DNA of 64,000 bases. Source: a virus. Position numbers and translations under genes: made by a program. The stretch is taken from IMG/VR virus record IMGVR_UViG_3300045988_169015, positions 32,001-96,000 of that record; one strand, written 5' to 3'. This document shows, in pieces, positions 7,952 to 52,143 of the stretch (position 1 is its first letter; every line of letters starts with the position of its first letter). The notes beneath the pieces are model-generated. The model was not told where the DNA came from. It made no database searches and saw nothing but the letters and a program-made list of their open reading frames with translations.

Positions 7952-9042
7952 TTAAATACTCTGTCATTGACCTGCACAGGAATCGACTTCGTGTTCCTAT
8001 GTCCGTGAATCTGATATGTATTTTCGGGTGTAGTTCTTATAAAGGTGTCAGCGATAGTCTCAAAATCATTATACGAACCAACGCCGTGAATCATCTGATC
8101 AGTTGCAACAAATGTGAGATTGTCGGGGATTGTGCTGAGGCCGGCGTGAGTTACAATGAACTGATTACCGTTATATGTATAATAAGCGCACTGACCAAAT
8201 TTGCGGTAAAGCATTCTGAGGTCTTTTTTGCTGATCTTGGCAGCATCAAGCTGAGGGCGGGTAACAAGTTCAAATTCCTTGGATTTGCCACGGACATCAT
8301 TGGCATAAAGCCACAGCCATCTCTCATGATTTCCCTCAAGCATAAAGACGTTCTTTTTATCTTTGATAGAGATAAGGAAGTTAAGCACCTCGGCGTTCTC
8401 AATTCCCCTATCGATATAATCACCGAGGAATATGTAGAACTCGTCGTCTTTAAGTCCGCCGTTGAAGTCAAAATAATACTGAAGTGCAGAATAGCAACCG
8501 TGAATGTCTCCAATATGGTGGATTTTCTTATATTCAGACAAATCAATGCTCTTGAACCAGATCTTATCCAGTTCGTCAGGCTTTATTACTTTAATACCTG
8601 CAGGAATCTTTTGTGTAGCAAACCTTGAGTACATTTTATCAATGACCTCATCGGGGACTCTTTTGACCCCGGGTCTGCCCGCATTTCTTCTTTTGACCTC
8701 TTCAATAGGAATATCAGTGAAATCAACACAGTAAATCCTATAACGATATGTTTCACACATATCCTTGTATCTGTTCATTTCTGCTGTCTTGGAATTGGTG
8801 GCGTCAATAACGGTAAATTCACCCTTCTGCATACGATATCCAAGCAAATTAAACAAAGTATTCCATACAGCTTTATCGTTGCTCTGGCTAATACCGTAAG
8901 AACCATCGGGCTGCATTATTGGGCTCTGGTGCATAAGTCTGATATCATCAGGCGAAAGCGCATACGGCTTCAATCCGTTCTGCTCGATCCATGTTGATTT
9001 CCCGCAGCCTGCGGAACCCCTTAAAAGCAATAATACTCTCAT
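7921..9042 (-). CDS. bifunctional polynucleotide kinase / metallophosphatase (Pnkp-like)
   Basis: N-terminal P-loop (GSAGCGKST). C-terminal calcineurin-like motifs GDIHGC, GDYIDRG, GNHE and HGH. Confidence 0.8.
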   Translation of the reverse strand: MRVLLLLRGSAGCGKSTWIEQNGLKPYALSPDDIRLMHQSPIMQPDGSYGISQSNDKAVWNTLFNLLGYRMQKGEFTVIDATNSKTAEMNRYKDMCETYRYRIYCVDFTDIPIEEVKRRNAGRPGVKRVPDEVIDKMYSRFATQKIPAGIKVIKPDELDKIWFKSIDLSEYKKIHHIGDIHGCYSALQYYFDFNGGLKDDEFYIFLGDYIDRGIENAEVLNFLISIKDKKNVFMLEGNHERWLWLYANDVRGKSKEFELVTRPQLDAAKISKKDLRMLYRKFGQCAYYTYNGNQFIVTHAGLSTIPDNLTFVATDQMIHGVGSYNDFETIADTFIRTTPENTYQIHGHRNTKSIPVQVNDRVFNLEGKALQQG

Positions 9043-27024: not shown

Positions 27025-27453
27025 TCACTCCTTTTTTACATATCCCATTTCCACCTGCCAGCAGAGAGTTGCCAGGGCATTACAAGCCTCGAAAAGTCCG
27101 GCCTTGTCGTCAAGAAATAAATTATAATATATTTTCAAACCGTCTCCATATCTGCCGATTTCCGGGATATTCTCGTTAATGGTATCGAATGGAAGGTTCT
27201 CATCATGAAGAAACTGAATATTCTTTTCGTTATGGGGATTGGCTGTAAACACGATGAAATAAGGATTTAAAATTGTTTTCGCTTTACGTATCAAATTCTT
27301 CGCATGGTCACAGCATTCGCTTTTATACGGCCTCACTGTATCGTCAAGGTCATATGCAATAATCAAGCGTTCATGCTCGATATAGGCATCCCTGAGACGC
27401 TTATACAGAAAACCACCTACGAAAGCATCGTCTTCTTTTACTGTTGATGTCAT
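27025..27453 (-). CDS. HAD-superfamily phosphatase/nucleotidase-like
   Basis: HAD motif I DxDxT (AYDLDDTV) and motif IV (FLDDK). Confidence 0.6.
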   Translation of the reverse strand: MTSTVKEDDAFVGGFLYKRLRDAYIEHERLIIAYDLDDTVRPYKSECCDHAKNLIRKAKTILNPYFIVFTANPHNEKNIQFLHDENLPFDTINENIPEIGRYGDGLKIYYNLFLDDKAGLFEACNALATLCWQVEMGYVKKE

Positions 27454-28919
27454 CAGAAACCTCCTTCATAAAGCATATTACGAACGTCAGCAAGCGTCTG
27501 AGTATTATAGCATTTACCATCCTCGAACACTGTGCGGAACAAGCCATTGACAGGAACTGTCTCAGCTGTAAAGCCGTCCTGATACTTTATCTCGCCGTGC
27601 TCTTTATAGATAAAGCACATACCCTTCTGGGACTTCTTGAATCTCGTATCTGTCTTGGGATTCTTAAAAATCATTATGGGCTTACCATCTACCTCACCAT
27701 AAGTCGCCTTAATAGCTATTGAATATGTATCACGGGTAAAAGGCTTGAGCATATTGTCCTCTTCAACGCACATCATTGAGAAGCTGCCGACACCGAGGAT
27801 TACATTATTGCAGGCAAAACCGTTGTCAATGAGCCTCTGGTATATCTGCTGACAGCGCTGAACGGTGATACTGTCCCCGTAAATCGCCTTAACGTGAGGG
27901 TCGAGTACCTTATAACCCTTGCTGTTGACTGTTCCGCCGAATTCTTCCCAGAGTGCAAACACAGTTTCGGTCACTATCTCAACAGGGTCTCCGCTGTCCC
28001 CTCTTATCAGCATACAGCCGTTGTGAGCCATAATTTCAGGCTTTAGCTGAGGCAAAATATTATTGACTACATTCCAGTAATCATAAGAATCGCATACTAC
28101 ACTGAAACTGTTATTGGGATAAAGCTCAGTCAGCAGCTTACGGAGAAATGTAATCTCGTCGCCGTCAATAGAGAAGTTGCTGGTCATCACTGAATGTTCG
28201 GTAGACACTGCCCCGTATGCTACGGGCTCCTTGGTGCAATCGCAGTGATAATACTTTTCCAGCCAAGGGATTGCGGGCACTGTCGCTGTATTCAGAAACG
28301 AAGTACACCAACCGGCAGAAGAAGCGATTGCGCTTTCAAGACTATGCTGACCTCTGAACGAGAAGTCACCGAGAGCCTTGGCTCTGGGCACGCCATCTTC
28401 AACGCTGATGTCGTAGAACTTATCAACGATCTGACGATACCAATAACCCACATTTGCAGACACCATTGGATGCCAGAGTGAAGCACTCATAAGACTTTCA
28501 AGGAACTGTCCGACCCATACAAAGTCAGGGTGTGTGCTGCTTATTTCCAGCATAGGAACGTGCATGGGGACACGGGTTCCCTCGGGAAGTGCCGATATCT
28601 TAACGGGCAAATAGCCCAGCTCGTGAAGAGCTCTGATTTTTGCGGTATCATATGTACCCTTGCCGAGAGTGCTGCCGAGAACTCTTTCATACTCGGCGCA
28701 GATCTCATCGACAGGCTTATTGAAAAATTCGTTATTGAAATATTCCACAAGATACTTCTCGATGAACGCCTGAAGTCCGAAGAAGACGAGTTTGTCATCG
28801 TGTACTCTGGACATTCTTGGTGTCATATAGGATACGAGCTTAGTGAGCTTGGGACTAAATTGAGCCTGATGGGTCATCTTATAAAAATCGCCCAGAAGCA
28901 TTGGCATTATTTCATTCAT
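27453..28919 (-). CDS. nicotinamide phosphoribosyltransferase family enzyme (NAMPT/NadV or Namat-type)
   Basis: GDFYKMTH, DFSFRGQHS, STEHSV, CDSYD, IRGDSGDP, YGDSI and KKSQKG align with NAMPT signature blocks. Confidence 0.9.
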   Translation of the reverse strand: MNEIMPMLLGDFYKMTHQAQFSPKLTKLVSYMTPRMSRVHDDKLVFFGLQAFIEKYLVEYFNNEFFNKPVDEICAEYERVLGSTLGKGTYDTAKIRALHELGYLPVKISALPEGTRVPMHVPMLEISSTHPDFVWVGQFLESLMSASLWHPMVSANVGYWYRQIVDKFYDISVEDGVPRAKALGDFSFRGQHSLESAIASSAGWCTSFLNTATVPAIPWLEKYYHCDCTKEPVAYGAVSTEHSVMTSNFSIDGDEITFLRKLLTELYPNNSFSVVCDSYDYWNVVNNILPQLKPEIMAHNGCMLIRGDSGDPVEIVTETVFALWEEFGGTVNSKGYKVLDPHVKAIYGDSITVQRCQQIYQRLIDNGFACNNVILGVGSFSMMCVEEDNMLKPFTRDTYSIAIKATYGEVDGKPIMIFKNPKTDTRFKKSQKGMCFIYKEHGEIKYQDGFTAETVPVNGLFRTVFEDGKCYNTQTLADVRNMLYEGGF

Positions 28920-29740
28920 ATGAAATTACCTCTTATTTCTGTTATTTTGTCGTTTTCAATGGGGATTTCCAGTGTATTGACTGTATAGATATGATCAATC
29001 CAGTCTGTCGTGAGCAGTATTCCTTCATACACAGCCTTTTCAAGATGAGTTACAAACAAATCTACCTTAGCTGCACCTGCCGCTTTAAGAGCCTGAGCTG
29101 CAAGAATAAATGTGCCGCCCTTAACACAAAGGTCATCGATTATCAGAATGTTTTTGTCCTTAATATCGGGGGCATTAACCAGCTCATACTTTTCAATCTT
29201 TCCGGTTGAAAGCTCACGCTTCTTGTTACCGTAAAAGTAATTAGTATATGTAAGGTGCTCGCCAAAAGACTTGCAGGCTCCATTATCAGGATAAAATACG
29301 TAATCGGGGGCACTTCGCCTATGTACTTCTTGAATACCGGCATCGTATATAACTTTGACGTTGTTAATAAGCGCCGGAGTTACATTGGAGTGAGGTGTAA
29401 GTATTGTTACCGAATCAAAATTAAGAGAATTGATGATATCGGCAACATATCTGAGGCTGAACGCCATTGAAGACATCTGCCTATCCATTCTTGAATATGG
29501 CATATATGCAATGGTCAGAGTTATAATTGCTTCATCCCAACCGTAATCAACTCTGTTTTCCTTTGACTGTTCATCAAGACACTTCTTGGCCACAATGAGC
29601 TTAAAGATATCAGCGTCCGATTCATATACAAGCTTGATTTCATTTACTGCATCCTTGACATAATAAGTTCCCATATCAAAAATGGTTTCACCATTAGGAA
29701 AACTTTTATCTCCAAAAGGTGCATTATTTATGTAAATCAT
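28916..29740 (-). CDS. ribose-phosphate pyrophosphokinase family enzyme (Prs or Adps-type)
   Basis: PRPP/PRTase loop IIDDLCVKGGT and N-terminal FPNGE. It overlaps the NAMPT-family gene by 4 nt. Confidence 0.8.
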   Translation of the reverse strand: MIYINNAPFGDKSFPNGETIFDMGTYYVKDAVNEIKLVYESDADIFKLIVAKKCLDEQSKENRVDYGWDEAIITLTIAYMPYSRMDRQMSSMAFSLRYVADIINSLNFDSVTILTPHSNVTPALINNVKVIYDAGIQEVHRRSAPDYVFYPDNGACKSFGEHLTYTNYFYGNKKRELSTGKIEKYELVNAPDIKDKNILIIDDLCVKGGTFILAAQALKAAGAAKVDLFVTHLEKAVYEGILLTTDWIDHIYTVNTLEIPIENDKITEIRGNFI

Positions 29741-30315: not shown

Positions 30316-30620
30316 TCGGCCGCCTCCTCAGTCTTTTCAATCTTGCGCTTACCCTTACTCTCATAATCCTTACAAGAAGAGGGCTTTAACACGTTGATAA
30401 AATTGCCCTTTGAAGTTGTTTCGGTATATGTAATTGGCATCATGGCAGAACGAACAAAATTGCCTTCCTCAGTCTTCTTCGTACATTTGTAACCTCTGAA
30501 CTGAAAATATCTACAAGTATTGCACTTACCGGAAGCATTCATTTCCTTAAGATTTTCGTCATTCAGCTTTGCGCCATCGGAGCCTTTGGCATAATTCGAA
30601 GCATTATAATTATTTGTCAT
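30312..30620 (-). CDS. hypothetical protein
   Basis: 102-aa ORF. TAACTGCAA lies immediately 5' of its ATG. Confidence 0.45.
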   Translation of the reverse strand: MTNNYNASNYAKGSDGAKLNDENLKEMNASGKCNTCRYFQFRGYKCTKKTEEGNFVRSAMMPITYTETTSKGNFINVLKPSSCKDYESKGKRKIEKTEEAAE

Positions 30621-30849
30621 TTGCAGTTATCCTTTCTAATATGTTTTGGGGTCAATTTTAGCCGCACAGCCAAAAGAATTAAGCAGCTGTACGGCAAATA
30701 CTGTAAAAGATTACCTTGATGGATTTCACAACCATCTCTCCTTATGATTTGATTTGTATATGTAAATCGCCACTATGGGTGAACGATGAACTCTGGGCAC
30801 AGTTGACTTCATCACAATCTCCAACCCAATCAAACAGAATTGAATACTG

Positions 30850-31000
30850 CTTGTGAACTACCGACCGTCTAAAGCCAGTCGGCTTCTTGCTTCATCGTCC
30901 TCGTAACCTACTAACTTCACAAGCGTAAATTCCGATAGTTCCTACCGTACTACATTATTATTTAGGCTGATTTAATCAGCCTTAATCCTTCATACAAAAT
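30850..31000 (-). ncRNA. predicted TnpB omega/right-end RNA
   Basis: Called by position only, from the 3' end of tnpB to the right-end hairpin, as in characterised TnpB loci. No structure was verified. Confidence 0.35.
30861..30882 (-). repeat. IS605-type right-end subterminal hairpin
   Basis: Plus strand CCGACCGTCTAAAGCCAGTCGG (stem CCGAC/GTCGG). Confidence 0.7.
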
Positions 31001-32071
31001 ATTTATAGCAGCGTTTATATCTCTGTCGTGACGTGTATTACAACAAGGACAAGTCCACTCTCTTACAGATAAATCCTTAGTTTCCTTATTAATATACCCA
31101 CATACACTACAAGTCTGACTACTTGGAAAGTAAGTATCAATCTTGATATACTGTCTACCATTCCAGTGAACCTTGTACTGTAACTGCCTTGTAAGTTCAT
31201 ACCAACTACAATCAGAAATACTCTTTGCAAGATTATGATTTTTAACCATATTGCTAATTTTTAAGTCCTCACTCACTATCAGTTGGTTTTCCTGAATTAG
31301 TTTGTGAGAAATTTTATGCAAATTATCAACACGGATATTTGTTATCTTCTCATACAGTCTTGCGACTTTAATACGCTGTTTGTTCCTATTATTGCTACCC
31401 TTTGTCTTTTTAGCAAGTTTTCTTTGCTCCTTTGCAAGTTTCTTTTCATACTTGTAAAGAGTTTTGGAGTTTTCAAACTTTTCACCATCAGATGTGATGA
31501 CTAAATCCTTGATACCTAAATCAATACCAACCATAGCACCAGTAGACTTCATCTGAAAATTCTCACAATTTACAAGAATAGAAATAAAATACTTGCCACT
31601 TGGCGTTTGAGATAAAGTTGCAGATTTAATTATACCAACAAATACTCTATGAACTTTTGCTTTTACCCATTTAAGTTTTGGAAGCTTAATTCTGTTCTTC
31701 TCGAAATCAACCTCTATGTTGTTGTTTGTACTGTTAGTAGAATAAGATTTATGATTATTCTTCTTACTTTTGAATTTAGGATAACCAGAATGTTCTTTGA
31801 AAAATTTCTGATATGCGCTATCCATATTATAAACAGAATTAGTAAGAGCAAATTTGTCTACCTCTTTAAGCCATTCATATTCTTTTTTAAGAACTTGATT
31901 AACATAGTTGTTACAACCTATCTTGTTTATAGATTTCTTTTCTGCTTCATAAAGATTTTTCCTATAAGCAAGCGTCTGATTATAAACAAATCTACAACAA
32001 CCGAATGTTTTCTGAATTTGTATTTCTTGTGTTTTATTTGGATAAAGCCTATATTTGAATGATTTAAACAT
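30962..32071 (-). CDS. tnpB: TnpB (OrfB) RNA-guided nuclease, RuvC plus zinc finger
   Basis: 369 aa. Starts [15 protein letters not shown] and has [10 protein letters not shown] (RuvC-I), CSVCG...[18 protein letters not shown] (Zn finger plus RuvC-III). Confidence 0.9.
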
Positions 32072-32215: not shown

Positions 32216-32300
32216 TGGTACGAGAGATGGGCTTCGAACCCACACGCATTCCTGCAGCAGTTTTTGAGACTGCTCTGTCTGCCTATTCCAGCACTCTCGC
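32216..32300 (-). tRNA. tRNA-Leu (anticodon CAA), type II, CCA encoded
   Basis: Hand-folded. Acceptor GCGAGAG/CTCTCGT, anticodon stem GCAGT/ACTGC, loop CTCAAAA, long variable arm, T-loop GGGTTCGAAGCCC. Confidence 0.85.
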
Positions 32301-32347
32301 ATATTTCGTTAATAATATAGCAACTGACGTTAGCTATTATTAACATC

Positions 32348-32430
32348 TGGTGCGGGTGACAGGACTTGAACCTGCACGCTTGCGCAATGGATCCTAAGTC
32401 TATCGTGTCTGCCAATTTCACCACACCCGC
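32348..32430 (-). tRNA. tRNA-Leu (anticodon TAG), type II, CCA encoded
   Basis: Acceptor GCGGGTG/CACCCGC, anticodon loop CTTAGGA (one A-C mismatch in the stem), long variable arm, T-loop AGGTTCAAGTCCT. Confidence 0.8.
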
Positions 32431-32434
32431 ATGT

Positions 32435-32511
32435 TGGTCTCCCAGATGGGATTCGAACCCATCCTGTAGGGATTTTAAGTCCCTTGTCTCCTGCCTCTGG
32501 ACTACTGGGAG
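32435..32511 (-). tRNA. tRNA with anticodon TAA (Leu codon UUA) but a short 5-nt variable loop
   Basis: Acceptor CTCCCAG/CTGGGAG, anticodon stem AGGGA/TCCCT, loop CTTAAAA, variable loop ACAGG, T-arm ATGGGTTCGAATCCCAT, then A73 and CCA. Confidence 0.75.
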
Positions 32512-32880
32512 TTATGTGCCCGTCTTTCCGGGCTGCCACGATGTCCAGCTTCGACATCTGCCGATTCGGGTCTTACGGCGTGACAACATTTCTTATGTTG
32601 CGCAACGAGCTGGATCCTTGCCCATCACACCCCTATACAGCGGTATTAAGGAACCCCTGCAAAACCTGTTTTTCACATTTCTGTTTTAACGTTATCTTGT
32701 GAGTTCTGGCTTCTGCACCCGTAGGCGTCTCCAATAAGCCGAGGCTGTATTTAAACTTGCCCGATCTACCCCTCGTCAGGGTCTTGATCTCATCAGGAGA
32801 CTTTGTACGTCCGCATTATAATTGTAACGGGCAACGGAGCACCCGTGCGGTCTCATTTCAATAACACCTATTCATACTAC
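32512..32880 (-). ncRNA. ORF-free stem-rich segment between tRNAs (candidate structured RNA)
   Basis: Successive hairpins GCCCG-tctttc-CGGGC, GATGTC-cagcttc-GACATC and CAACAT-ttctt-ATGTTG. No credible ORF. Strand assumed from the flanking tRNAs. Confidence 0.3.
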
Positions 32881-32952
32881 CAAAAGGATAGGACTCGAAC
32901 CTATGACACCTCGGTTAACAGCCGAGTGCTCTACCAACTGAGCTACCTCTGC
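32881..32952 (-). tRNA. tRNA-Asn(GTT)-like with frayed acceptor stem, no CCA
   Basis: Canonical D-arm (GCTCAGTTGGTAGAGC), anticodon arm CTCGG-CTGTTAA-CCGAG and T-arm ATAGGTTCGAGTCCTAT. Acceptor pairs 1:72 and 2:71 are mismatched. Confidence 0.55.
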
Positions 32953-33679
32953 ACGAATACCACAGTCAGACTTATGCGTACACTCAATACGCTTATCTTC
33001 CAACTGTATAACGCTGAGTGCGTTTACTGTACCGTCCATACATTATTTTGTTTGGTTGTATTACGGTCTTATTATTGATACAAGTTAATCTGTATCTCAA
33101 CCACTCAGACAGTTATATTACCATACCGCAAGCTGATGTGGATTTTTTCAGTTACAAGGGTGACACTAAGATAGTCTCCGCCACGTTTTACCCCTTGTTG
33201 TCATCTGTTATGCAGCACAGATGATCTTGGCCACTGAGTTTTCACCTACAAGCTTTGTCTGCATCTGCTTATAGACACCATTGGTGAGCCGCTCGGGTAC
33301 TTACCCCGAATCTCCTTCTGCAGTTAGGCGGCTTGTCATTAGCCCAACGGCTCATATATGCACCCTTACTGACCCCAAGTAAATTATATTAAGGTGTAGG
33401 GTGCTTGTACTCGGTTTCAGGAATTAGCCATCTCTCTTTAACGACGCTCACCGGCATAATTATCGTATGGTCACTTCACCAAAAAGCAAATCCATACTCA
33501 ACGTTTTGATGATTTTTTCAAGCCCCATCCTCACAAGGCATCAGAATCAAGTCTGTAAACGTTCTTCTGGCTTAATTCCTATCACACTTGTCTTAGACTC
33601 AGAGTTGATGTCTCCTATTGCCTGTTCTCCCATTTAGAAAGGTCGGTAGTGTTCACCATGTAATTTGTAAATAATTTTA
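32953..33679 (-). ncRNA. about 730-nt ORF-free structured segment flanked by tRNAs (candidate large ncRNA, ROOL/GOLLD-like context)
   Basis: No credible ORF on either strand. Many local stems, for example CATCTG-ttatgcagca-CAGATG and GAGCCG...CGGCTC. Identity not verified. Confidence 0.35.
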
Positions 33680-33754
33680 TGGATTCAGGTAACGGGATCG
33701 AACCGTTATTCTTAGAGCCAAAATCTAATGTTCTACCACTTAAACTAACCTGAA
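33680..33754 (-). tRNA. tRNA-Gln (anticodon TTG), CCA encoded
   Basis: Acceptor TTCAGGT/ACCTGAA (U1:A72), anticodon arm TTAGA-TTTTGGC-TCTAA, T-arm AACGGTTCGATCCCGTT. Confidence 0.85.
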
Positions 33755-34208
33755 ATATTTGTGCAGCTTAACGTACCGCACATGAGATTTCTCAACGATA
33801 GGATACTATGTTAATCTATAAATTATCCACCATCAACCAGCCCCGAGGATCACACACAGCCGATGGATTCGCCGCTTTAACCTATATCGGGGATTTCTAT
33901 GAACTCTATGATTTACAATTTACAATTTGAACTTTGAAGTGCAGCAAGTCTGCCATCAAGTACGCACGTTTGCTACTATAAATTCTGAACTTTAATGTTT
34001 AAAACAATTAAGCTTTGAATTTTAAACTTTCAGCTATTATTCGGACTTTAAACTCTGCCCGAAAACATCGTAGATACTCGATATTCTTAATATCTTTAGC
34101 ATTTGGAAGCTTTTACAGTTTCAAATTGTTTTGTTCATCATTTTAGACTGTTGATGTTCAGTTGAAACCAGTTAAGTGTTTTCGGTTGACGATGGATAAT
34201 CAGCTTAA

Positions 34209-34865
34209 TCAGTAGTTAATTTCGATTTCGGTGGTTGCATTTGCCACTGTAATGGCTGCGTCCACCTCAGCTTCGAAAGCGTCGATCTTATTTTTCAAGT
34301 CTTCGATTGCCTTCTTTGTGTCAATACCCTCGATAAGATCAAAAGTATTTTCATCGATGTACTTTGCTCTCGCCGCATTTATGATTTCCACCATTTCATC
34401 GGAAATAGTGTTATTACTGCTGTTTGTTCCATAAAGACCAATGATATATGTCTCGCAGGCTTTTGTCAGCTTCTCTCCGTTGTTATTCTGGAGCAGACTC
34501 TGCGTATTTGTATATTGAGTTGCCATGGTATTGAGCAGAGCCTTCATATAATCAATACCCGTCTGTTTCATATAAATAGCTTCGGCAACAGTCATTTGCT
34601 CTCCACCGATAGATACGATTGTGGAAGCGTTTGCCTTATTCACTGCCTTCTTGATGGCATTATTCCTGTTGATGAGAGCGACTATTTTATCGTAGCTGCC
34701 CTGCATCTCTGCCTTTACGTCAGTGATATTTTTGCCGTTTAGCGTGCGCATTGTATGCTTGCTTACGTTGCAGAATGTCGCACTGCGAATCTCTGCTGTG
34801 ATTCTGTTACCGAGCACCTTCAGCTCGGAAAGTGCCTTTGCGATCGTCATTTTTTCGTTGGTCAT
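34209..34865 (-). CDS. hypothetical coiled-coil protein
   Basis: Start set to the ATG at 34865 (MTNEKM), behind AAGGAGGAG. The longer ORF reads through a regulatory motif. Confidence 0.55.
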   Translation of the reverse strand: MTNEKMTIAKALSELKVLGNRITAEIRSATFCNVSKHTMRTLNGKNITDVKAEMQGSYDKIVALINRNNAIKKAVNKANASTIVSIGGEQMTVAEAIYMKQTGIDYMKALLNTMATQYTNTQSLLQNNNGEKLTKACETYIIGLYGTNSSNNTISDEMVEIINAARAKYIDENTFDLIEGIDTKKAIEDLKNKIDAFEAEVDAAITVANATTEIEINY

Positions 34866-34896
34866 GATGACTCCTCCTTGATTTTTAAATTGTAAA

Positions 34897-34912
34897 ATAT
34901 CCAATATGTTTT
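34897..34912 (-). repeat. 16-nt direct repeat ATATCCAATATGTTTT (copy 1)
   Basis: Identical 16-mer at 35169-35184. The two copies bracket tRNA-Lys. The core ATATCCAATATG equals the promoter core at 548-576 and 11772-11800. Confidence 0.7.
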
Positions 34913-34947
34913 CGCACTAATAAATAATAGTATAAAAAACATATATT

Positions 34948-35023
34948 TGGTGAGCCATTGGGGATTTGAACCCCAGACCAATAGTTTAAAAGACTACTGC
35001 TCTACCGACTGAGCTAATGACTC
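34948..35023 (-). tRNA. tRNA-Lys (anticodon TTT), CCA encoded
   Basis: Acceptor GAGTCAT/ATGGCTC (one G-U pair), D-arm GCTCAGTCGGTAGAGC, anticodon loop CTTTTAA, T-arm TGGGGTTCAAATCCCCA. Confidence 0.85.
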
Positions 35024-46496: not shown

Positions 46497-46578
46497 AAAA
46501 TCCTCCTATCAAATGTGAATTTTACTATCTTTTTCATTATTTATAACCTCCATTAAACAATTATTTTGTTTTGCAATT

Positions 46579-46698
46579 AGCATAACAAGATGTTTTCTAC
46601 AAAGGTTTAGATGTATTGGAGGAGAGTGTCCGTGACACCCGCTGATAAGCGGGGTGTAACTGGACTGATCGCCTCCTATAGTACAAAGCTATTATGCT
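46579..46698. ncRNA. array unit U0 (degenerate)
   Basis: Outer stem AGCATAA/TTATGCT, degenerate clamp CTACAAAGGTTTAG, long hairpin GGAGG...CACCCGC-tgataa-GCGGGGTG...CCTCC. Confidence 0.5.
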
Positions 46699-46715
46699 GA
46701 TTGCAGTTATCAAAA

Positions 46716-46837
46716 CCGAGCCTGGCGGCAATTTACTAAAACAGTTTAGATATGAGGGATCTGAAACGTCGGGCACTTGTCAGGTATGAATAGTGCCCGT
46801 CGGTGTAAGATCCCGAAATGCAGTTTGCCAAACTCGG
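46716..46837. ncRNA. array unit U1
   Basis: Outer stem CCGAG/CTCGG, clamp CTAAA-acag-TTTAG (46736-46749), long hairpin GGGATCT..GGGCACT/AGTGCCC..AGATCCC. Confidence 0.6.
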
Positions 46838-46845
46838 TTATGCAG

Positions 46846-46983
46846 CCGGAATATCCATGGTATCGCTAAAGGAATTTAGATATGAACCTTCTGAAAGAAG
46901 AGTCATCGACGCTTCAATCAACGAAGTTGATTGAGGGTCATCGACTCATCTTTCGAAGGTGCAGTGCATATTGGATATCACGG
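46846..46983. ncRNA. array unit U2
   Basis: Outer stem CCGgAATATCCA/TGGATATcaCGG, clamp CTAAA-ggaa-TTTAG (46866-46879), long hairpin ACCTTC..CAATCAAC-gaa-GTTGATTG..GAAGGT. Confidence 0.6.
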
Positions 46984-46991
46984 TTACTGAA

Positions 46992-47128
46992 TTTAATTGA
47001 AGTGCTTATTGTATTGCTGAAAGATTTTTAGATACAATGTCGTGGGTGCATCTTGAAGCTCGCACGTTTGCGAGCGGTTTTGTGATGATTCTCAATGACA
47101 TTATTGCATTTAAGGTGCTGCAATTATT
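46992..47128. ncRNA. array unit U3
   Basis: Outer stem TTAATTG/CAATTA, variant clamp CTGAAAGATTTTTAG (47017-47031), long hairpin AATGTC..GCTCGCA-cgtt-TGCGAGC..GACATT. Confidence 0.55.
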
Positions 47129-47140
47129 TATATATATTTC

Positions 47141-47261
47141 CTGACCGCCGAATTTTCGCTAAAAGCATTTAGATAACATGTATCACGGAGATGAGAAACA
47201 TCCAGCAGTGTGCTGGATGGCTCTCATCTGAGGGATTACATGTTTGCATTAGGACGGACAG
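47141..47261. ncRNA. array unit U4
   Basis: Outer stem CTGaCCGcC/GgaCGGaCAG, clamp CTAAA-agca-TTTAG (47159-47172), long hairpin CATGTA..GAGATGAGA..ATCCAGCA-gtg-TGCTGGAT..TCTCATCT..TACATG. Confidence 0.6.
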
Positions 47262-47279
47262 AAATCAGATCAGCAATTT

Positions 47280-47397
47280 CCGGCAGCAGTTGTTCGCTAA
47301 ATTGATTTAGATAATACCATCTTGTCTGAGGAAAGAGTACTGGGAGTGTCCCAGTACATTTCTTCGGACCAGATGCGTATTTGCATTTTGCCGCCGG
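47280..47397. ncRNA. array unit U5
   Basis: Outer stem CCGGCAGC/GCCGCCGG, clamp CTAAA-ttga-TTTAG (47297-47310), long hairpin CATCT..GTACTGGGA-gtg-TCCCAGTAC..AGATG. Confidence 0.6.
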
Positions 47398-47408
47398 GAA
47401 TTAAGAAA

Positions 47409-47530
47409 TCATAACACCGAATTGTCGCTAAAGTAATTTAGATATAAAGAATCACGACAGCGGCGTGAAGCGATGGGTGACGCATCACGAGCGCCGAGGG
47501 AGGGATTATTGATTGCATTTTGTGTTATGA
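47409..47530. ncRNA. array unit U6
   Basis: Perfect outer stem TCATAACAC/GTGTTATGA, clamp CTAAA-gtaa-TTTAG (47428-47441), GC-rich long hairpin (CGGCG..GCGCCG). Confidence 0.6.
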
Positions 47531-47543
47531 ATTAGGAATTATT

Positions 47544-47672
47544 CGGCTTGTGGAAACATATGCTTACTAAAGATATTTAGATAAGAGGCAGCATAAACGA
47601 TCTCGAACTCTGGAGGTCTCCAGGATGAGAAGATCGTGTTGCTGCGGACTTGAATGTTGTTTCCGCAAGTCG
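47544..47672. ncRNA. array unit U7
   Basis: 15-bp outer stem CGGCTTGTGGAAACA/TGTTTCCGCAAGTCG (two G-T pairs), clamp CTAAA-gata-TTTAG (47567-47580), long hairpin GCAGCA..CTCTGGAG-gt-CTCCAG..TGCTGC. Confidence 0.6.
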
Positions 47673-47680
47673 TTTTGCAG

Positions 47681-47983
47681 TTAGTGATTTGCCGCTATAG
47701 CGTCCAGCTCAGATTGGAATTCGGACACAACATATTCGGCGTCGTAATGCCACTGCTCATCGTTGTTTCTGCAGTCCTCATACATGTCTAATATGTCACG
47801 CCAAAGTTCCTGATTTGCAGTTACCTTTTCCTGCGTCTGAGCGCCATACTCTTCTTCGATAGTCATCGCCATATCTTCTGCGTTGTATTCACTCTTGACG
47901 AATTTATAAACATCGAAAGCATCGTAAGAACTAAGCACTGTGCCGTTGACAACGTATTCGCCATTACTGTTTCGTGTTACCAT
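47681..47983 (-). CDS. hypothetical acidic protein embedded in the array
   Basis: 100-aa ORF between U7 and U8. Its TAA stop is part of a TAACTGCAAAA motif. Confidence 0.55.
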   Translation of the reverse strand: MVTRNSNGEYVVNGTVLSSYDAFDVYKFVKSEYNAEDMAMTIEEEYGAQTQEKVTANQELWRDILDMYEDCRNNDEQWHYDAEYVVSEFQSELDAIAANH

Positions 47984-48016
47984 ATGTATTCCTCCGTTAC
48001 AATTATAATAGTATAA

Positions 48017-48143
48017 CTCTCAGCCGCAGCGATTTACTAAAACCATTTAGATTAAGAGTCCGTGATTTACGAGCATCGTACGGGAGTGATAACTGTCGTC
48101 GATGCTTATAAATCCGGATGATATGCACTTTGCTGACTGAGAG
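48017..48143. ncRNA. array unit U8
   Basis: Outer stem CTCAGcCgcAGC/GCTgaCTGAG, clamp CTAAA-acca-TTTAG (48037-48050), long hairpin TCCG..ATTTA..AGCATCG/CGATGCT..TAAAT..CGGA. Followed by TTTGCAGTTA and T7. Confidence 0.6.
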
Positions 48144-48158
48144 TTTGCAGTTATTTTT

Positions 48159-48989
48159 TTATTCCATATTCGCAAAAGGATCGCTGAGGCTGATGTAGTT
48201 TTCCGCCATAGAAACCTTAAGTGCCTTATAGAAATAGTAGTCGGGTGACTGAATCTCGAGTCTGAGTTTTCTGAGGGCATTCTCTCTGGTGTAAACTTCA
48301 TCGAACCAGTGAAGAATAAATCTTCCGTCAAACATGATATAGTTTTTGAGAGTATAATAAGCGCCAGCCTTCTTGAAGCTGCGAATAAACGCATCAGCAA
48401 GCTCGTGGTTCTTGAAGTATCTGCCGCCCTTCATGCCTGTGCCTTCGGGGATATCAAACGCTCTCTTTGCAATTACCAGTTCAATAGCCTCTGCAATTAC
48501 AGCGAAGTCTGAGTATGACCAAGCGGTATTTATAAGGCTCTGAAGACTGGGCTGGAACTCCTTAGCGAAGTTCATAAATATATCGGCGATGCTATTCACA
48601 TCAAAGAAATGCTTGCGCTCTTCAAATGCAACGGGGTCGTTATCTTTGAGGTGAGCCAGCAGCTTAGCTTCCTTACAGGTATAGAGGATACTGTACTTAT
48701 AGGTATAGAAATTTGCGATTACCTGATTGATACTTGTGGTGACACTCTCCTGTCTCATAAGTCTAATGAACTGAGCGGAGATCCAACGTCTTGTTGTTCT
48801 GGGGTTATAGACTTCGCCGCAGATCGTCTTGCCAAAATACTTACCGTGCGCAGGAATTGAGTTATCATTGTCGGCAGGGATTGGAGTATTAGCCATATCG
48901 AGCATTGACTTTGCCACCAGTTTTGCGAACTCATTCATATCGAGGTTGCTGTTGTTAAGGTTAACGTTGTTCGTGTTGTTGTTAGTCAT
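48159..48989 (-). CDS. hypothetical protein (third gene of the RT operon)
   Basis: 276-aa ORF with an Asn-rich N-terminus. No motif recognised. Confidence 0.55.
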   Translation of the reverse strand: MTNNNTNNVNLNNSNLDMNEFAKLVAKSMLDMANTPIPADNDNSIPAHGKYFGKTICGEVYNPRTTRRWISAQFIRLMRQESVTTSINQVIANFYTYKYSILYTCKEAKLLAHLKDNDPVAFEERKHFFDVNSIADIFMNFAKEFQPSLQSLINTAWSYSDFAVIAEAIELVIAKRAFDIPEGTGMKGGRYFKNHELADAFIRSFKKAGAYYTLKNYIMFDGRFILHWFDEVYTRENALRKLRLEIQSPDYYFYKALKVSMAENYISLSDPFANME

Positions 48990-49032: not shown

Positions 49033-49476
49033 TTACTGGATATAGCTGCGATAGATTATGAAACTATCGGTCAGTTTACGGAACCAGCCGGGCGTTTCCC
49101 ATTTAAGGGTACCGTTAAGACTTCCGATTATAATAGCGGCACAAAGCTTTGCGTGCATTACATCTCGGTTATCGTTACGGTAAAAGTCGGTCATGCTCAG
49201 CTCATCGGCAGACAGAGGTTTAAACAGGTAAGTCTTGCGGCTGTTCTCACTGCTCGGTGACGAATGAATAAAGTTCTCGTAAAGAGTTACCAGATCGTCA
49301 TAGCCGGACACAGGAGACCCCAACGAGTCGATAACTTCGCCGCCTATCATATCAGCTACAAGCTTGCCGTTTTCCATTACGACACGCTTATCTATTCTGA
49401 TATTCTTTTTGACCAGATCGAACCTGAGCTTATGCCCCGATTCTGATTTTGCAATTAACGCATCATACAGCGTCAT
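49033..49476 (-). CDS. hypothetical protein translationally coupled to the RT
   Basis: Start at the ATG at 49476, behind a GGAGG that lies inside the RT's last codons. It overlaps the RT stop by 14 nt. Confidence 0.55.
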   Translation of the reverse strand: MTLYDALIAKSESGHKLRFDLVKKNIRIDKRVVMENGKLVADMIGGEVIDSLGSPVSGYDDLVTLYENFIHSSPSSENSRKTYLFKPLSADELSMTDFYRNDNRDVMHAKLCAAIIIGSLNGTLKWETPGWFRKLTDSFIIYRSYIQ

Positions 49477-50842
49477 GTATAACACCTCCTTTTATTTTGT
49501 TTATCTCGCTCAGCCAGAGTTCGTGGTCGGTATGATAGACTTTGTACATATGATTAAGGCTGTACCAACCGGCAGCCCTTACCATATCTATTCCGTCTGC
49601 CACAGTCCTTTTCCTGTTGGCTTTAACGTTTATTCCTTTCTGGAACTGGATCGTGTAATTGGGGTTATTATCTGTAGAACCGAGACCCCAAACCTTATTG
49701 CGACCTGTTATCACTGCTCTTAAACAATCTTTACAATACCTGTCTATCATGTCGATATCATGTTTGCAGTTAACGGTTCCGAACAGATACTGACACATGC
49801 CGAACTGGTTGCTGTTCTCTTCATATGCAAGGAACAGATACCTCTGGAGCCGCCTGCATATCCGCTTGGTCTCCGCTTCGGTAGCCGGTCTTTTGTGTTC
49901 TCTGCTCCACTGTATCGTTTCAGATTTTATATGCTGCTCGATACCTCTGAGAGTTTTTGCAGACACAGTTATCAAGTCGCCACGTATCTTAAAGCCCAGA
50001 AACTCGAACCAGTCTTTATCTGCCTGTAACGCTTTGACCTTTTTGGGATTAAGAGTTACACCCTTTGGTTCGAGCATCTGCTTTATAACTTCGAGGGCGT
50101 GGTCAGCTTCCCTGCCGAGGATTATGATATCGTCAGAATAGCGATAATAGATAACATCCATATTACTTATGGTCTCATCTATATCTCTCAAGCACAGGTC
50201 AGCCAGCAGACAGGCGATAGGATTGCCCTGACTTAGTGATTTATATCTGTATTCGGGTTTTCCGTTTATGATTATAGTATCGTCGTGATAATGTTTAATT
50301 ACTATGTTATCGATACAATCCTTATCGGGAGTTATGATATCGAGTGTTCTGTCAAGCGTTTCACGATTTACGGTATCAAAGAACTTGCTCAGGTCAAGCT
50401 TGTATCCTTTGTACCATTTCTTACGGTTCATCTCACTGACAAGAGCCTTTACGGTCTTGCCGGCTGACAGTCCCCTGCGGTAAGAAACGCAGTTAGGATG
50501 TATCAGGTGGTGAAAATCGTCGTAATACATCTTATAGAATGTATTGCACAGAACTCGGTCAAACGTTTCGAGAACTGCAAGCTTGCGGACTTCTTCAAAG
50601 TTTCGCTTCTCTGCTTCGGCGAATGTCAACCAGTTGTCTGTAAGCTTGTCAATGTACATCTCTACAGGGGCTTTGAACTCGATTTTGCAATTAGCGATAA
50701 GGTCGCCTGCAAGAGCCCACGCTGCATCTTGCGAAAACGTGGACAGCACGCACATATCGAGTCCCTTGCGGTCGATGTGCAAAAGCGCTCTTTCATGCAG
50801 CTCTCGGTCGTTCACAAACCGTTCAAGTTTATTCGGTTTCAT
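49463..50842 (-). CDS. reverse transcriptase (group-II-intron-like/retron-like fingers-palm plus thumb)
   Basis: 459 aa with RT blocks SYRRGLSAGK (2), YKLDLSKFFDTV (3/A), LSQGNPIACLLADLCL (4/B), YYRYSDDIIILG (5/C, YxDD), LNPKKVK (6/D) and FEFLGFKI (7/E). Also has a thumb-like AAGWYSLNHMY. Confidence 0.9.
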   Translation of the reverse strand: MKPNKLERFVNDRELHERALLHIDRKGLDMCVLSTFSQDAAWALAGDLIANCKIEFKAPVEMYIDKLTDNWLTFAEAEKRNFEEVRKLAVLETFDRVLCNTFYKMYYDDFHHLIHPNCVSYRRGLSAGKTVKALVSEMNRKKWYKGYKLDLSKFFDTVNRETLDRTLDIITPDKDCIDNIVIKHYHDDTIIINGKPEYRYKSLSQGNPIACLLADLCLRDIDETISNMDVIYYRYSDDIIILGREADHALEVIKQMLEPKGVTLNPKKVKALQADKDWFEFLGFKIRGDLITVSAKTLRGIEQHIKSETIQWSREHKRPATEAETKRICRRLQRYLFLAYEENSNQFGMCQYLFGTVNCKHDIDMIDRYCKDCLRAVITGRNKVWGLGSTDNNPNYTIQFQKGINVKANRKRTVADGIDMVRAAGWYSLNHMYKVYHTDHELWLSEINKIKGGVIHDAV

Positions 50843-51548: not shown

Positions 51549-51567
51549 TCTCGTTCTCCTTTTGCAG

Positions 51568-52143
51568 TTACGGTCTTAATGACCACTTGACTGTTTTGAT
51601 AAATGTTTCCTCAAAATAGTTATCGAGGCCGAAGCGATAGTTATTATAGACTTCTTTCATATCGCTCTTACTGAACCCGGTTTCGTCAAGGATATCTTCT
51701 ATACCGTCGCTGCCGTAAAAACCGCCACAGCTGTATAATGGCCCATCGAATTCATACAAGGTGTACCCGTACACCTCGCCGCTCGCATACTGATTGAGTG
51801 CCTCTATTTCGCCCTGCAAAACTGTTTTCGCAGTTGCAATTGTAGAATCGTCAACCTTTCCGTATTCTTTTTCGATCTCATCATAGGTGACATAGATAAG
51901 ACCGCATATTCCGCTGTCCCATCTGTCGCCAAAATCCGAAAGTGAAAATGTTACTCCGCTATGTACGTAAGCATACACAGGATACTGAACTCTTTTGATA
52001 CCGGAAAGTGCAGTTGTCAGCTCCTGAAATGATTTGTAGTTATGCTTGTCTCCGTAAGCTCTTGTATCTCTTCCAAAGAGAATCAGATGTCCGAGACTGT
52101 CCCATTCTCTCGGTGATTCGCAGTCGTAATCTTTATAAATCAC
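51568..52143 (-). CDS. hypothetical protein
   Basis: 191-aa ORF (CESPREWDSLG...YAYVHSG). Family not identified. Confidence 0.5.
   Translation of the reverse strand: MIYKDYDCESPREWDSLGHLILFGRDTRAYGDKHNYKSFQELTTALSGIKRVQYPVYAYVHSGVTFSLSDFGDRWDSGICGLIYVTYDEIEKEYGKVDDSTIATAKTVLQGEIEALNQYASGEVYGYTLYEFDGPLYSCGGFYGSDGIEDILDETGFSKSDMKEVYNNYRFGLDNYFEETFIKTVKWSLRP

What the first reader, a model, noticed from the sequence alone, without database searches (positions are those of the whole stretch)
46571..48153. Tandem array of nine covarying three-helix modules next to a phage reverse transcriptase
Directly visible: there are nine units (U0 46579-46698, U1 46716-46837, U2 46846-46983, U3 46992-47128, U4 47141-47261, U5 47280-47397, U6 47409-47530, U7 47544-47672, U8 48017-48143). 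The conserved TTTAG recurs every 130-152 nt from U1 to U7.

Every unit has the same architecture built from different sequence:
- (i) An outer stem closes the unit. Examples are U6 TCATAACAC/GTGTTATGA, U7 CGGCTTGTGGAAACA/TGTTTCCGCAAGTCG and U5 CCGGCAGC/GCCGCCGG.
- (ii) A conserved junction, GC-(0-5 nt)-CTAAA-N4-TTTAGATA, whose CTAAA/TTTAG arms make a 5-bp clamp with a free 4-nt loop.
- (iii) A 55-75-nt imperfect hairpin that is unrelated in sequence between units. Examples are U5 GTACTGGGA-gtg-TCCCAGTAC, U4 ATCCAGCA-gtg-TGCTGGAT and U2 CAATCAAC-gaa-GTTGATTG.
- (iv) A 3' junction TTGCA(T/G)T in most units.

Stems kept by compensatory changes across paralogous copies are the signature of a structured RNA or ssDNA family. 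They are not what coding DNA or simple repeats look like.

The layout (terminal inverted repeat, small conserved hairpin, long variable hairpin) is the layout of a retron msr-msd. Here it is multiplied nine-fold, with nine different long hairpins. The only RT in the window (49463-50842) lies 1.3 kb away in the same minus-strand gene string. I do not know of a described system that pairs an RT with a tandem array of diversified template-like modules.

The strand is unresolved. G-T pairs favour the plus strand in U7, U5, U2 and U8, and the minus strand in U1, U4, U5 (outer stem) and U0. A T7 run follows U8 on the plus strand.
Basis: partly seen in the sequence, partly recalled or inferred. Interest (0 to 1): 0.92.

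Follow-up and report, generated by a model that had tools for sequence, protein, structure and literature searches.

The report
Phage UG27 reverse-transcriptase template RNA array
The nine repeated hairpin modules are real and are the template-RNA array of a phage UG27 reverse-transcriptase system, a kind of system first described in a September 2026 preprint, so this is a good example of a newly known thing rather than a new discovery.

Summary
Nine units of 118-138 nt lie at 46579-47672 and 48017-48143. Each has an outer stem and a long central hairpin built from different sequence, and both are supported by covariation.

The neighbouring genes are a UG27-class reverse transcriptase (RT, 49463-50842), its small accessory protein (49033-49476) and its large accessory protein (48159-48989). 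All lie on the minus strand.

This architecture was published on 24 Sep 2026 (bioRxiv 10.64898/2026.09.22.753630). UG27 systems in gut phages carry variable arrays of structurally conserved, sequence-diverse ncRNA units. [quoted passage not shown]

There the units read 5'-stem-AAUGCA-[hairpin]-AUCUAAA-N4-UUUAG-stem-3', a clade variant of the published UUYA ... AUC-N7-UANAG motifs.

- The 5-bp "clamp" has no covariation support.
- Unit U3 looks decayed in this window.
- The system is not a retron.

Points beyond the preprint's text:
- Three units (U8, U5, U3) have rewritten, still-paired hairpins in phages whose RT differs at about 5% of four-fold sites.
- A conserved acidic 100-aa ORF sits inside the array.

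The function of the cDNAs remains unknown.

The parts
49463..50842 (-). UG27-class reverse transcriptase, 459 aa, active site YSDD (Y235-D238)
   Evidence: PADLOC RT_UG27 E = 5.1e-86 against the next best, UG26, at 9e-47. Pfam RVT_1 E = 3e-21. YSDD is invariant in 39 homologues.
49033..49476 (-). Small accessory protein (sORF, Mestre cluster 346), 147 aa from the conserved ATG; overlaps the end of the RT gene
   Evidence: PADLOC RTas346 E = 7e-18. Homologues start at MTLYD. No Pfam or PHROG hit. The structure model failed (pLDDT 35).
48159..48989 (-). Large accessory protein (bORF, Mestre cluster 337), 276 aa, predicted all-alpha
   Evidence: PADLOC RTas337 E = 1e-20. 612 representative clusters in the 1.84-billion-protein library. 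AF2 model pLDDT 75. No PDB fold or sequence relative.
48017..48143 (-). ncRNA unit U8, upstream of the embedded ORF; predicted cDNA equals plus-strand 48050-48127
   Evidence: CM hit 31.6 bits, not in the seed. z = -6.2. Outer stem has a 2-nt bulge. The hairpin apex is rewritten in 3 of the 4 other haplotypes (L001, L002, L220; L215 keeps the window's apex), and it stays paired in all five.
47681..47983 (-). Conserved acidic 100-aa ORF embedded in the array (pI 4.05); relation to the system unknown
   Evidence: Intact in all haplotypes. 93% aa identity in L001/L002 and 46% in L091, where the RT is 87%. No family hit.
47544..47672 (-). ncRNA unit U7 (5' motif UUCA); predicted cDNA equals plus-strand 47580-47654
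   Evidence: CM 42.6 bits; z = -5.6; cDNA prediction.
47409..47530 (-). ncRNA unit U6; predicted cDNA equals plus-strand 47441-47517
   Evidence: CM 56.7 bits; z = -3.6.
47280..47397 (-). ncRNA unit U5; predicted cDNA equals plus-strand 47310-47385
   Evidence: CM 45.5 bits; z = -7.1. Apical stem ACT/AGT becomes TCA/TGA in L001/L002, two compensatory pairs.
47141..47261 (-). ncRNA unit U4; predicted cDNA equals plus-strand 47172-47248
   Evidence: CM 50.1 bits; z = -6.7. This unit type is kept in the RT-87% lineage.
46992..47128 (-). ncRNA unit U3, probably decayed in this window; predicted cDNA equals plus-strand 47031-47108
   Evidence: Lowest CM score, 20.7 bits; z = -2.7. The 3' motif has a 1-nt insertion and a T>C change. 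Fold is -24 kcal/mol against -46 to -55 in four other alleles. 9 of 40 pairs are compensatory among five alleles.
46846..46983 (-). ncRNA unit U2 (longest hairpin); predicted cDNA equals plus-strand 46879-46968
   Evidence: CM 46.7 bits; z = -6.9.
46716..46837 (-). ncRNA unit U1; predicted cDNA equals plus-strand 46749-46822
   Evidence: CM 50.5 bits; z = -6.1.
46579..46698 (-). ncRNA unit U0 (5' motif UGUA, 3' motif UGUAG); predicted cDNA equals plus-strand 46610-46685
   Evidence: CM 38.1 bits; z = -4.9.

Best explanation
**What it is.** This is a UG27 reverse-transcriptase system of a large gut-type phage. Its genes lie on the minus strand in the order RT, small accessory protein, large accessory protein. 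They are followed by nine ncRNA units, one before and eight after a small acidic ORF.

**Anatomy of a unit (shown here).** Each unit is one long hairpin interrupted by an asymmetric internal loop. Read 5' to 3' on the minus strand, it has:
- an outer stem;
- the 5' loop strand A-A-N-U-G-Y-A;
- a unit-specific imperfect central hairpin of 66-83 nt;
- the 3' loop strand AUCUAAA-N4-UUUAG-YRA;
- the return strand of the outer stem.

**How it works (inferred by homology, not shown here).** The inference rests on five experimentally tested UG27 systems. The three proteins form a complex that recognises the conserved loop motifs. Reverse transcription starts at the AUC just 3' of the central hairpin and stops after the U-G/U-Y-A motif on the 5' side. 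This releases one ssDNA hairpin per unit, predicted here at 74-90 nt, with the plus-strand sequence of the window. The array is therefore a set of about nine different ssDNA hairpin products.

**What the hairpins do.** This is unknown. The phage context, the unit turnover and the rewritten hairpins make a role against the host the best guess, for example as decoys or binders for a host factor or a defence protein. That is a guess only.
For: **Proteins.**
- The RT is UG27 (E = 5e-86). RTas346 and RTas337 are the next two genes.
- The YSDD active site is invariant.

**Published description of the system.** The preprint reports an ncRNA array, cDNA of 50-100 nt, a start at AUC of AUC-N7-UANAG, a stop after UUYA, a requirement for all three proteins, a pseudoknot-less class of about 135 nt, and extra units in neighbouring intergenic regions. 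Mestre et al. 2022 placed UG27 in gut phages together with clusters 337 and 346 and a predicted ncRNA.

**Strand.**
- In 88 distant UG27 loci, ATC-N7-TANAG occurs 361 times on the RT strand and 89 times on the other strand, against about 65 expected by chance per strand. The sites form arrays with a period of 160-190 nt.
- In the window and in all close relatives, the variant motif and every full-length CM hit lie on the RT strand.

**Structure.** Covariation supports the outer stem and the hairpin base, as do the own-versus-cross test and the folding z-scores.

**Orthologous units.** Stems are kept through compensatory change. In U3, 9 of 40 pairs are compensatory among 5 alleles.

**Co-occurrence.**
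- The tandem form of the motif occurs on only two of 2.9 million viral contigs, and both carry the close RT homologues.
- All 11 further loci of this clade that extend past the accessory genes carry an array.

**Other.**
- Predicted cDNAs are 74-90 nt hairpins.
- Phage context: NrdD, ligase, DNA polymerase, DnaB and 6 tRNAs.
Against: - No expression or cDNA data exist for this locus.
- None of the nine units matches the published motif exactly. The spacing is N8 rather than N7, the 3' motif is UUUAG rather than UANAG, and the 5' motif is UGCA/UGUA rather than UUYA in 8 of 9 units.
- My covariance model does not detect canonical UG27 units in distant loci. The link to the characterised systems therefore rests on protein homology and shared architecture, not on a shared RNA model.
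- I could not obtain the authors' covariance models; no supplements are held.
- Folding alone does not favour the minus strand.
- U3 may be non-functional.
- No target or partner for the cDNAs was found. In-window complementarity is at chance level.
Confidence: 0.88

Rival explanations
1. The array is a multi-copy retron. Each unit would be an msr-msd whose outer stem acts as the a1/a2 repeat, and the RT would make branched RNA-linked msDNA primed from a 2'-OH of a conserved G.
For: - The layout resembles a retron: an outer inverted repeat, a conserved segment and a long variable hairpin that is copied into ssDNA.
- Pfam and the source annotations call some relatives 'retron-type RT'.
Against: - The RT scores 5e-86 for UG27 but only about 2e-12 for the retron RT models.
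- In the PDB, its nearest relatives are group-II-intron-like RTs, Cas-associated RTs, a 499-aa RNA-dependent DNA polymerase (9ioa) and DRT2. Retron Ec86 is at 1e-7.
- Two dedicated accessory proteins are required in UG27 systems.
- There are nine templates per RT.
- The preprint text I read does not mention a branched RNA-DNA product.
Confidence: 0.04
2. The functional molecules are the RNAs themselves, for example protein sponges or decoys acting as an array of structured RNAs. cDNA synthesis would be secondary or regulatory.
For: - Covariation constrains RNA pairing in the outer stem, which is not copied into cDNA.
- The biological role of the cDNAs is unknown.
Against: - The outer stem and loop motifs are what an RT complex would need in order to recognise its template.
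- cDNA is abundant and RT-dependent in all five tested systems.
- Divergence between haplotypes concentrates in three units, and in two of them (U8 and U3) it peaks in the copied hairpin.
Confidence: 0.08
3. The units act at the DNA level or from the plus strand. They could be recombination sites, attC-like or REP/MITE-like palindromic elements, or plus-strand transcripts ending at the T-run after U8. In that case the nearby RT would be a coincidence.
For: - Both strands fold equally well once composition is controlled.
- A T7 run follows U8 on the plus strand.
Against: - The conserved motifs are asymmetric and always on the RT strand across 88 distant loci and all close ones.
- The arrays travel strictly with the three genes.
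- Unit arms differ between copies, so these are not copies of one mobile element.
- The terminator-like and promoter-like scans are at background level.
- Experiments on homologous systems show RT-dependent cDNA.
Confidence: 0.02

Closest known systems
UG27 reverse-transcriptase systems with variable ncRNA arrays (Li et al., bioRxiv 10.64898/2026.09.22.753630, 24 Sep 2026; RT group and clusters 337/346 defined by Mestre et al., NAR 2022, PMC9226505)
   Same: - The same three proteins.
- Phage context.
- A tandem array on the RT strand.
- Units with a shared fold but unrelated sequence.
- A central hairpin bracketed by a short 5' motif ending in YA and a 3' motif starting with AUC.
- Unit length in the range of the pseudoknot-less class (about 135 nt).
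- An extra unit in a neighbouring intergenic region.
- Unit gain and loss between relatives.
   Different: - This clade has its own motif variant: UGCA/UGUA instead of UUYA, and AUC-N8-UUUAG instead of AUC-N7-UANAG. The variant creates a possible 5-bp mini-hairpin, CUAAA/UUUAG.
- Gene order is RT-sORF-bORF-array, with a small acidic ORF inside the array.
- My model of these units does not detect canonical units.
- cDNA production has not been tested for this clade.
Retrons (msr-msd ncRNA plus retron RT)
   Same: An RT copies a hairpin portion of an adjacent structured ncRNA, closed by an outer inverted repeat, into a small ssDNA hairpin.
   Different: - A different RT clade.
- Two obligatory accessory proteins of unknown fold.
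- Nine different templates per RT.
- Phage-borne rather than a host defence island.
- No evidence of a 2'-5' branch or of a toxin effector.
Other class 2 UG RTs with ncRNA templates: DRT2 (UG2) and DRT9 (UG28)
   Same: The same broad RT class. The ncRNA is encoded next to the RT and serves as its template. In PADLOC, Drt9 scores 1e-20 and Drt2 scores 3e-17. Solved DRT2 structures, and a 499-aa RNA-dependent DNA polymerase entry (9ioa), are among the nearest in the PDB.
   Different: According to the preprint, other class 2 UG RTs make long or concatemeric cDNA. From my own knowledge, those systems use a single ncRNA and act in host defence. UG27 makes many short, distinct hairpins from an array and lives in phages.
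Diversity-generating retroelements
   Same: A phage-borne RT with a nearby non-coding template.
   Different: - No template-repeat/variable-repeat pair: the hairpin sequences have no match elsewhere in the window beyond chance.
- A different RT group.

Membership tests
UG27 RT system with ncRNA array | Reverse transcriptase of the UG27 group | tested here: met
   PADLOC RT_UG27 E = 5.1e-86 over residues 79-446. The next best is UG26 at 9e-47.
UG27 RT system with ncRNA array | YSDD catalytic motif (mutation to YSAA abolishes cDNA in the tested systems) | tested here: met
   Y235, D237 and D238 are invariant and S236 is nearly invariant (at least 90%) in an alignment of 39 homologues. The motif is named.
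UG27 RT system with ncRNA array | Small accessory protein (cluster 346 / sORF) adjacent to the RT | tested here: met
   PADLOC RTas346 E = 7e-18, covering 144 of 147 profile positions.
UG27 RT system with ncRNA array | Large accessory protein (cluster 337 / bORF) adjacent to the RT | tested here: met
   PADLOC RTas337 E = 1e-20. The family is broad.
UG27 RT system with ncRNA array | Tandem array of about 135-170-nt units on the RT strand, alike in structure but unlike in sequence | tested here: met
   - Nine units of 118-138 nt, all on the minus strand.
- Pairwise similarity between units is at background level.
- Stems covary.
UG27 RT system with ncRNA array | Central hairpin bracketed by a 5' UUYA motif and a 3' AUC-N7-UANAG motif in an asymmetric internal loop | tested here: inconclusive
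   **Arrangement.** The arrangement is the same and AUC is invariant.

**Consensus.** The published consensus is not matched literally.
- The 5' motif is UGCA in 7 units, UGUA in 1 and UUCA in 1.
- The 3' motif is AUC-N8-UUUAG.

**Intermediate forms.**
- L092 (RT 48% identical) has AUC-N8-UAAAG.
- The cultured Bacteroides phage BS-TP1 has AUC-N8-UA[A/C]AG.

**Limits.** The preprint says that some clades need a second model or escape both models. I could not run those models.
UG27 RT system with ncRNA array | Unit class: pseudoknotted (149/167 nt) or pseudoknot-less (about 135 nt) | tested here: met
   Units are 118-138 nt long. A scan of all column pairs in 34 distinct units finds covariation only in the outer stem and the central hairpin. 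This fits the pseudoknot-less class.
UG27 RT system with ncRNA array | RT-dependent ssDNA of 50-100 nt copied from each central hairpin, requiring all three proteins | not testable with these tools
   Only a prediction is possible: cDNAs of 74-90 nt with plus-strand sequence.
UG27 RT system with ncRNA array | Located in a phage or prophage | tested here: met
   - NrdD, DNA ligase, DNA polymerase, DnaB and NAMPT.
- Six tRNAs.
- Relatives lie on IMG/VR contigs of 111-146 kb.
Retron | RT belongs to the retron RT clade | tested here: not met
   The best retron RT models score about 2e-12, against 5e-86 for UG27.
Retron | One msr-msd ncRNA per RT, with a conserved branching G and 2'-5' linked msDNA | not testable with these tools
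   There are nine units per RT. An outer inverted repeat is present, but priming chemistry cannot be read from sequence.
Diversity-generating retroelement | Template repeat with a near-identical variable repeat in a target gene | tested here: not met
   The longest match of any hairpin elsewhere in the window is 10-12 nt, equal to shuffled controls.
CRISPR-like or other direct-repeat array | Near-identical direct repeats separated by spacers | tested here: not met
   TRF finds no tandem repeat. Only about 23 nt of motif are shared between units. No cas genes appear among the PADLOC hits.

The most novel reading that the evidence does not exclude
**Proposed reading.** The copied hairpins are fast-evolving specificity determinants. 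In this view the array is a modular, rapidly rewritten library of ssDNA hairpin effectors, such as decoys or aptamer-like binders aimed at host factors or defence proteins. The embedded acidic ORF could be a fourth, co-evolving component.

**Observations behind it.**
- The window's RT gene differs from those of L001, L002 and L215 at only 3-5% of four-fold degenerate sites (13% against L220).
- Against L001 and L002, the template hairpins of U8, U3 and U5 differ by 16-33%, and across all five haplotypes they keep their pairing through compensatory changes.
- The other six units are 91-100% identical.
- Only 3 of 9 unit types are shared at 87% RT identity.

**Caveat.** Recombination between arrays could give the same pattern without selection.
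Probability: 0.25. Interest if true: 0.7.

Novelty: new member of a known kind. Interest (0 to 1): 0.35.

Why it matters
The finding matters as confirmation more than as discovery. A tool-less reading of raw sequence recovered a system that was published only days before the databases used here were frozen.

This locus adds some useful detail:
- It shows a clade with variant recognition motifs (UGCA ... AUC-N8-UUUAG). Comparing it with canonical units narrows down which nucleotides the RT complex may really need: AUC, U..AG and YA.
- It gives natural allele series (U3, U8, U5) that work like compensatory-mutation experiments.
- The decayed U3 and the never-covarying "clamp" are ready-made tests of what the enzyme reads.

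The open question, what phage-made ssDNA hairpins do, is not answered here.

Tried and rejected
- **Rfam.** Searches at gathering and permissive thresholds gave only tRNAs and two chance hits.
- **TRF.** Nothing found.
- **Strand from folding energy.** Raw energies favour the plus strand in 8 of 9 units. The z-scores are equal on the two strands, so this is a composition effect, and I dropped it.
- **Single-motif scan of viral contigs.** I replaced it with a two-unit pattern.
- **megablast of the locus against GenBank phages.** No match.
- **MAFFT alignment of whole units.** It does not align the stems. I solved this by masking the hairpin middle and padding the junctions with N to build a scaffold model. 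This is a workaround, so the outer-stem register was chosen by optimisation. The own-versus-cross test controls for that.
- **Pseudoknot or other long-range pairing.** None found.
- **Complementarity of the hairpins to the rest of the window.** At chance level.
- **sORF structure.** pLDDT 35, unusable.
- **bORF.** Fold search and PDB profile search gave no relative.
- **Sigma-70 promoter and intrinsic terminator scans.** At background level.
- **AACTGCAAA motif.** It is strand-biased window-wide and often lies near start codons. It is not a unit feature.
- **Test for faster-than-neutral divergence.** Confounded by mosaic divergence along the locus.
Full report
**1. Observation**

The region contains nine units. 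On the plus strand, CTAAA-N4-TTTAGAT is exact at seven sites. It has one mismatch in U0 and two mismatches in U3. Successive motifs from U7 to U0 are 130-152 nt apart, and U8 sits 470 nt upstream across a small ORF. The units share no sequence beyond the short motifs: pairwise local alignment scores between units are at background level, TRF finds no tandem repeat, and Rfam has no family for them.

MFE folding recovers the same architecture in almost every unit, namely an outer stem, a small CUAAA/UUUAG hairpin and a long imperfect hairpin. All units fold better than dinucleotide shuffles. On the minus strand z = -2.7 to -7.1, and U3 is the weakest.

**2. Are the stems real?**

I anchored 18 non-redundant units from the window and three relatives on the two conserved motifs. 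I masked the hairpin middle and counted pairs.
- The 10-bp outer stem is paired in 92.8% of cells, and all 10 pairs show changes on both sides.
- The 12 basal pairs of the central hairpin are paired in 71.3% of cells, and all 12 show changes on both sides.
- Overall 84.2% of cells pair. Shuffles give 53.7% (0 of 500 reach the observed value), and sliding the partners gives 34-43%.

The outer-stem register had been chosen by optimisation, so I also compared each unit's own arms with the arms of other units under the same optimisation. Own arms give 8.2 of 9 pairs against 6.25 for cross pairs. The central hairpin gives -22.9 kcal/mol for own halves against -10.1 for cross halves.

A covariance model built from this scaffold finds exactly nine full-length hits in the 64-kb window, all on the minus strand. 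They include U8 and U3, which were not in the seed.

One exception is the small "clamp". Its arms never covary. Where they vary (UGUAG in U0, UUCAG, UAUAG, and the indel in U3), the pair is simply lost. A related clade has UAAAG at that place, which cannot pair with CUAAA.

**3. Surroundings**

Essentially all genes in the window are on the minus strand (86% of the window is covered by minus-strand ORFs).
- The 459-aa ORF 49463-50842 matches PADLOC RT_UG27 at 5e-86.
- The next ORF (49033-49476/85) matches RTas346, and the one after it (48159-48989) matches RTas337. These are the two gene clusters that Mestre et al. 2022 found associated with UG27 RTs in predicted gut phages.
- The RT has YSDD.
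- The rest of the window is a phage replication and nucleotide-metabolism module with six tRNAs.
- Close relatives sit on viral contigs of 111-185 kb and on one contig of 402 kb.

**4. What is known**

A full-text search for UG27 returned a bioRxiv preprint of 24 Sep 2026 (10.64898/2026.09.22.753630). It describes this architecture.
- UG27 loci in phages of Bacteroidota and Bacillota carry variable arrays of structurally conserved, sequence-diverse ncRNA units. Lengths peak at 149 and 167 nt, and a class of about 135 nt lacks a pseudoknot.
- Some loci have extra units in neighbouring intergenic regions.
- Five systems expressed in E. coli make RT-dependent ssDNA of 50-100 nt. [quoted passage not shown] It needs both accessory proteins.
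- The role of the cDNA is unknown, and no complementarity to phage or host was seen.

**5. Strand**

Folding cannot decide the strand. Raw energies favour the plus strand, but the z-scores are the same on both strands.

Homology does decide it. In 88 distant UG27 loci oriented with the RT on the plus strand, ATC-N7-TANAG occurs 361 times on the RT strand and 89 times on the other, with about 65 expected by chance. The sites form arrays with a period of 160-190 nt next to the RT.

In the window, the AUC-containing motif lies 3' of the central hairpin only when the minus strand is read:

5'-outer stem-AAUGCA-[hairpin]-AUCUAAA-N4-UUUAG-YRA-outer stem-3'.

This is the published arrangement with clade-specific letters. 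U-G/U-Y-A replaces UUYA, and AUC-N8-U-U-U-A-G replaces AUC-N7-UANAG. Intermediate forms exist. L092 (RT 48% identical) has AUC-N8-UAAAG, and the cultured Bacteroides phage BS-TP1 has eight units with AUC-N8-UA[A/C]AG. No pseudoknot-like covariation is present, and the units are 118-138 nt long. Both points fit the pseudoknot-less class.

**6. Relatives of this clade**

Eleven further loci carry the same gene string and extend past the accessory genes: L001, L002, L091, L095, L096 and L215-L220. Every one of them has an array on the RT strand. (A twelfth locus, L093, has an identical RT but no unit in the 4.4 kb held.) The two-unit version of the motif occurs on only two of 2.9 million viral contigs, the two that carry the close RT homologues. 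My model detects no canonical UG27 units in the distant loci, so the RNA of this clade is a distinct variant.

**7. Evolution of the units**

- Against L001 and L002, six units are 93-100% identical while U8, U5 and U3 are only 75-90% identical. The RT and both accessory genes are 95-99% identical in these comparisons.
- The RT gene differs at about 5% of four-fold degenerate sites.
- The differences peak in the copied hairpin of U8 and U3, which is 67-79% identical.
- Pairing is preserved. In U8 the apical stem reads AGCATCG/CGATGCT, GCAGGTGT/ACACCTGC or ACGATC.TTCTG/CAGA.TGATCGT in different haplotypes, and all fold at -44 to -51 kcal/mol.
- U5 shows ACT/AGT changed to TCA/TGA.
- U3 has five alleles, with 9 of 40 pairs changed on both sides.
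- The window's own U3 is the odd one out. It has a 1-nt insertion and a T>C change in the 3' motif, A-C mismatches in the stem, a fold of -24 against -46 to -55 kcal/mol, and the lowest model score. It may be decaying.
- At 87% RT identity (L091, L216-L219), only 3 of 9 unit types are shared, and two units instead of one precede the small ORF.
- Divergence along the locus is mosaic. Four-fold sites in ORF100 differ by 13-23%. Recombination is therefore a sufficient explanation, and selection is not shown.

**8. Mechanism**

Shown here:
- the three genes;
- the nine units and their strand;
- the two covarying helices;
- the conserved loop motifs.

Inferred from the preprint's experiments on homologous systems:
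- the three proteins act together;
- synthesis starts at AUC and stops after the 5' YA motif;
- each unit yields one ssDNA hairpin.

On that basis the products here would be 74-90 nt long with plus-strand sequence, at the coordinates listed under "parts".

The accessory proteins give no further clue. The large one is predicted all-alpha (pLDDT 75) and has no PDB relative by fold or by profile. The small one could not be modelled. The hairpins have no complementarity elsewhere in the window beyond chance.

**9. Verdict**

The system is not a retron by membership, and it is no longer undescribed. This is a new member, of a variant clade, of a kind that became known in September 2026. Interest is moderate to low. 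The residual value lies in the motif variant, the natural compensatory allele series, the unsupported clamp, and the embedded acidic ORF.

Noticed in passing
window 47681-47983 (-): A conserved, very acidic 100-aa ORF (pI 4.05; 22 D/E against 6 K/R) sits inside the ncRNA array in every haplotype. It evolves fast: 46% aa identity where the RT is 87%. It has no family hit. It could be an unrelated moron or a DNA-mimic-type protein.
   Followed up: partly
window 46992-47128 (-): Unit U3 looks decayed in this window only. The 3' motif has a 1-nt insertion and a T>C change, and the stem has A-C mismatches. It folds at -24 kcal/mol against -46 to -55 in four other alleles.
   Followed up: yes
window 30962-32071 (-): A TnpB / IS605 OrfB protein (OrfB_IS605, Cas12f1-like TNB and HTH domains) lies directly beside the cluster of six tRNA genes (32216-35023). 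I did not look for its omega RNA.
   Followed up: no
window 27453-29740 (-): A nicotinamide phosphoribosyltransferase (NAMPT) gene is followed by an overlapping ORF with a phosphoribosyltransferase domain. From my own knowledge, this is an NAD-salvage pair of the kind phages use against NAD-depleting defences.
   Followed up: no
window 7921-9042 (-): An ORF with AAA_33 kinase and calcineurin-like phosphoesterase domains, which looks like a polynucleotide kinase-phosphatase.
   Followed up: no
window-wide; e.g. 48144-48152, 47674-47682, 51561-51569, 30620-30628: AACTGCAAA occurs 11 times on the minus (coding) strand and once on the plus strand. It is often within 30 nt upstream of a start codon, and it lies directly 5' of U8, U7 and U0. 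It could be a phage promoter or processing signal.
   Followed up: partly
L214 (Bacteroides phage BS-TP1, PQ571274.1, record 79351-81963): This cultured phage has a UG27-like RT (gp79) annotated as 'tail protein'. It is followed by an unannotated 1.35-kb gap holding eight units with ATC-N8-TA[A/C]AG at a period of about 170 nt. It is a possible experimental system.
   Followed up: partly
L096 (OLVO01000003.1, contig of 401,949 bp): The same RT and array, identical to L001, lie on a 402-kb contig. The element is therefore either a prophage in a bacterial contig or part of a very large phage genome.
   Followed up: no
L091, L216-L219 compared with the window: At 87% RT identity, only 3 of 9 unit types are shared. 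Two units rather than one precede the small ORF. Across the two lineages there are 18 distinct unit types.
   Followed up: yes
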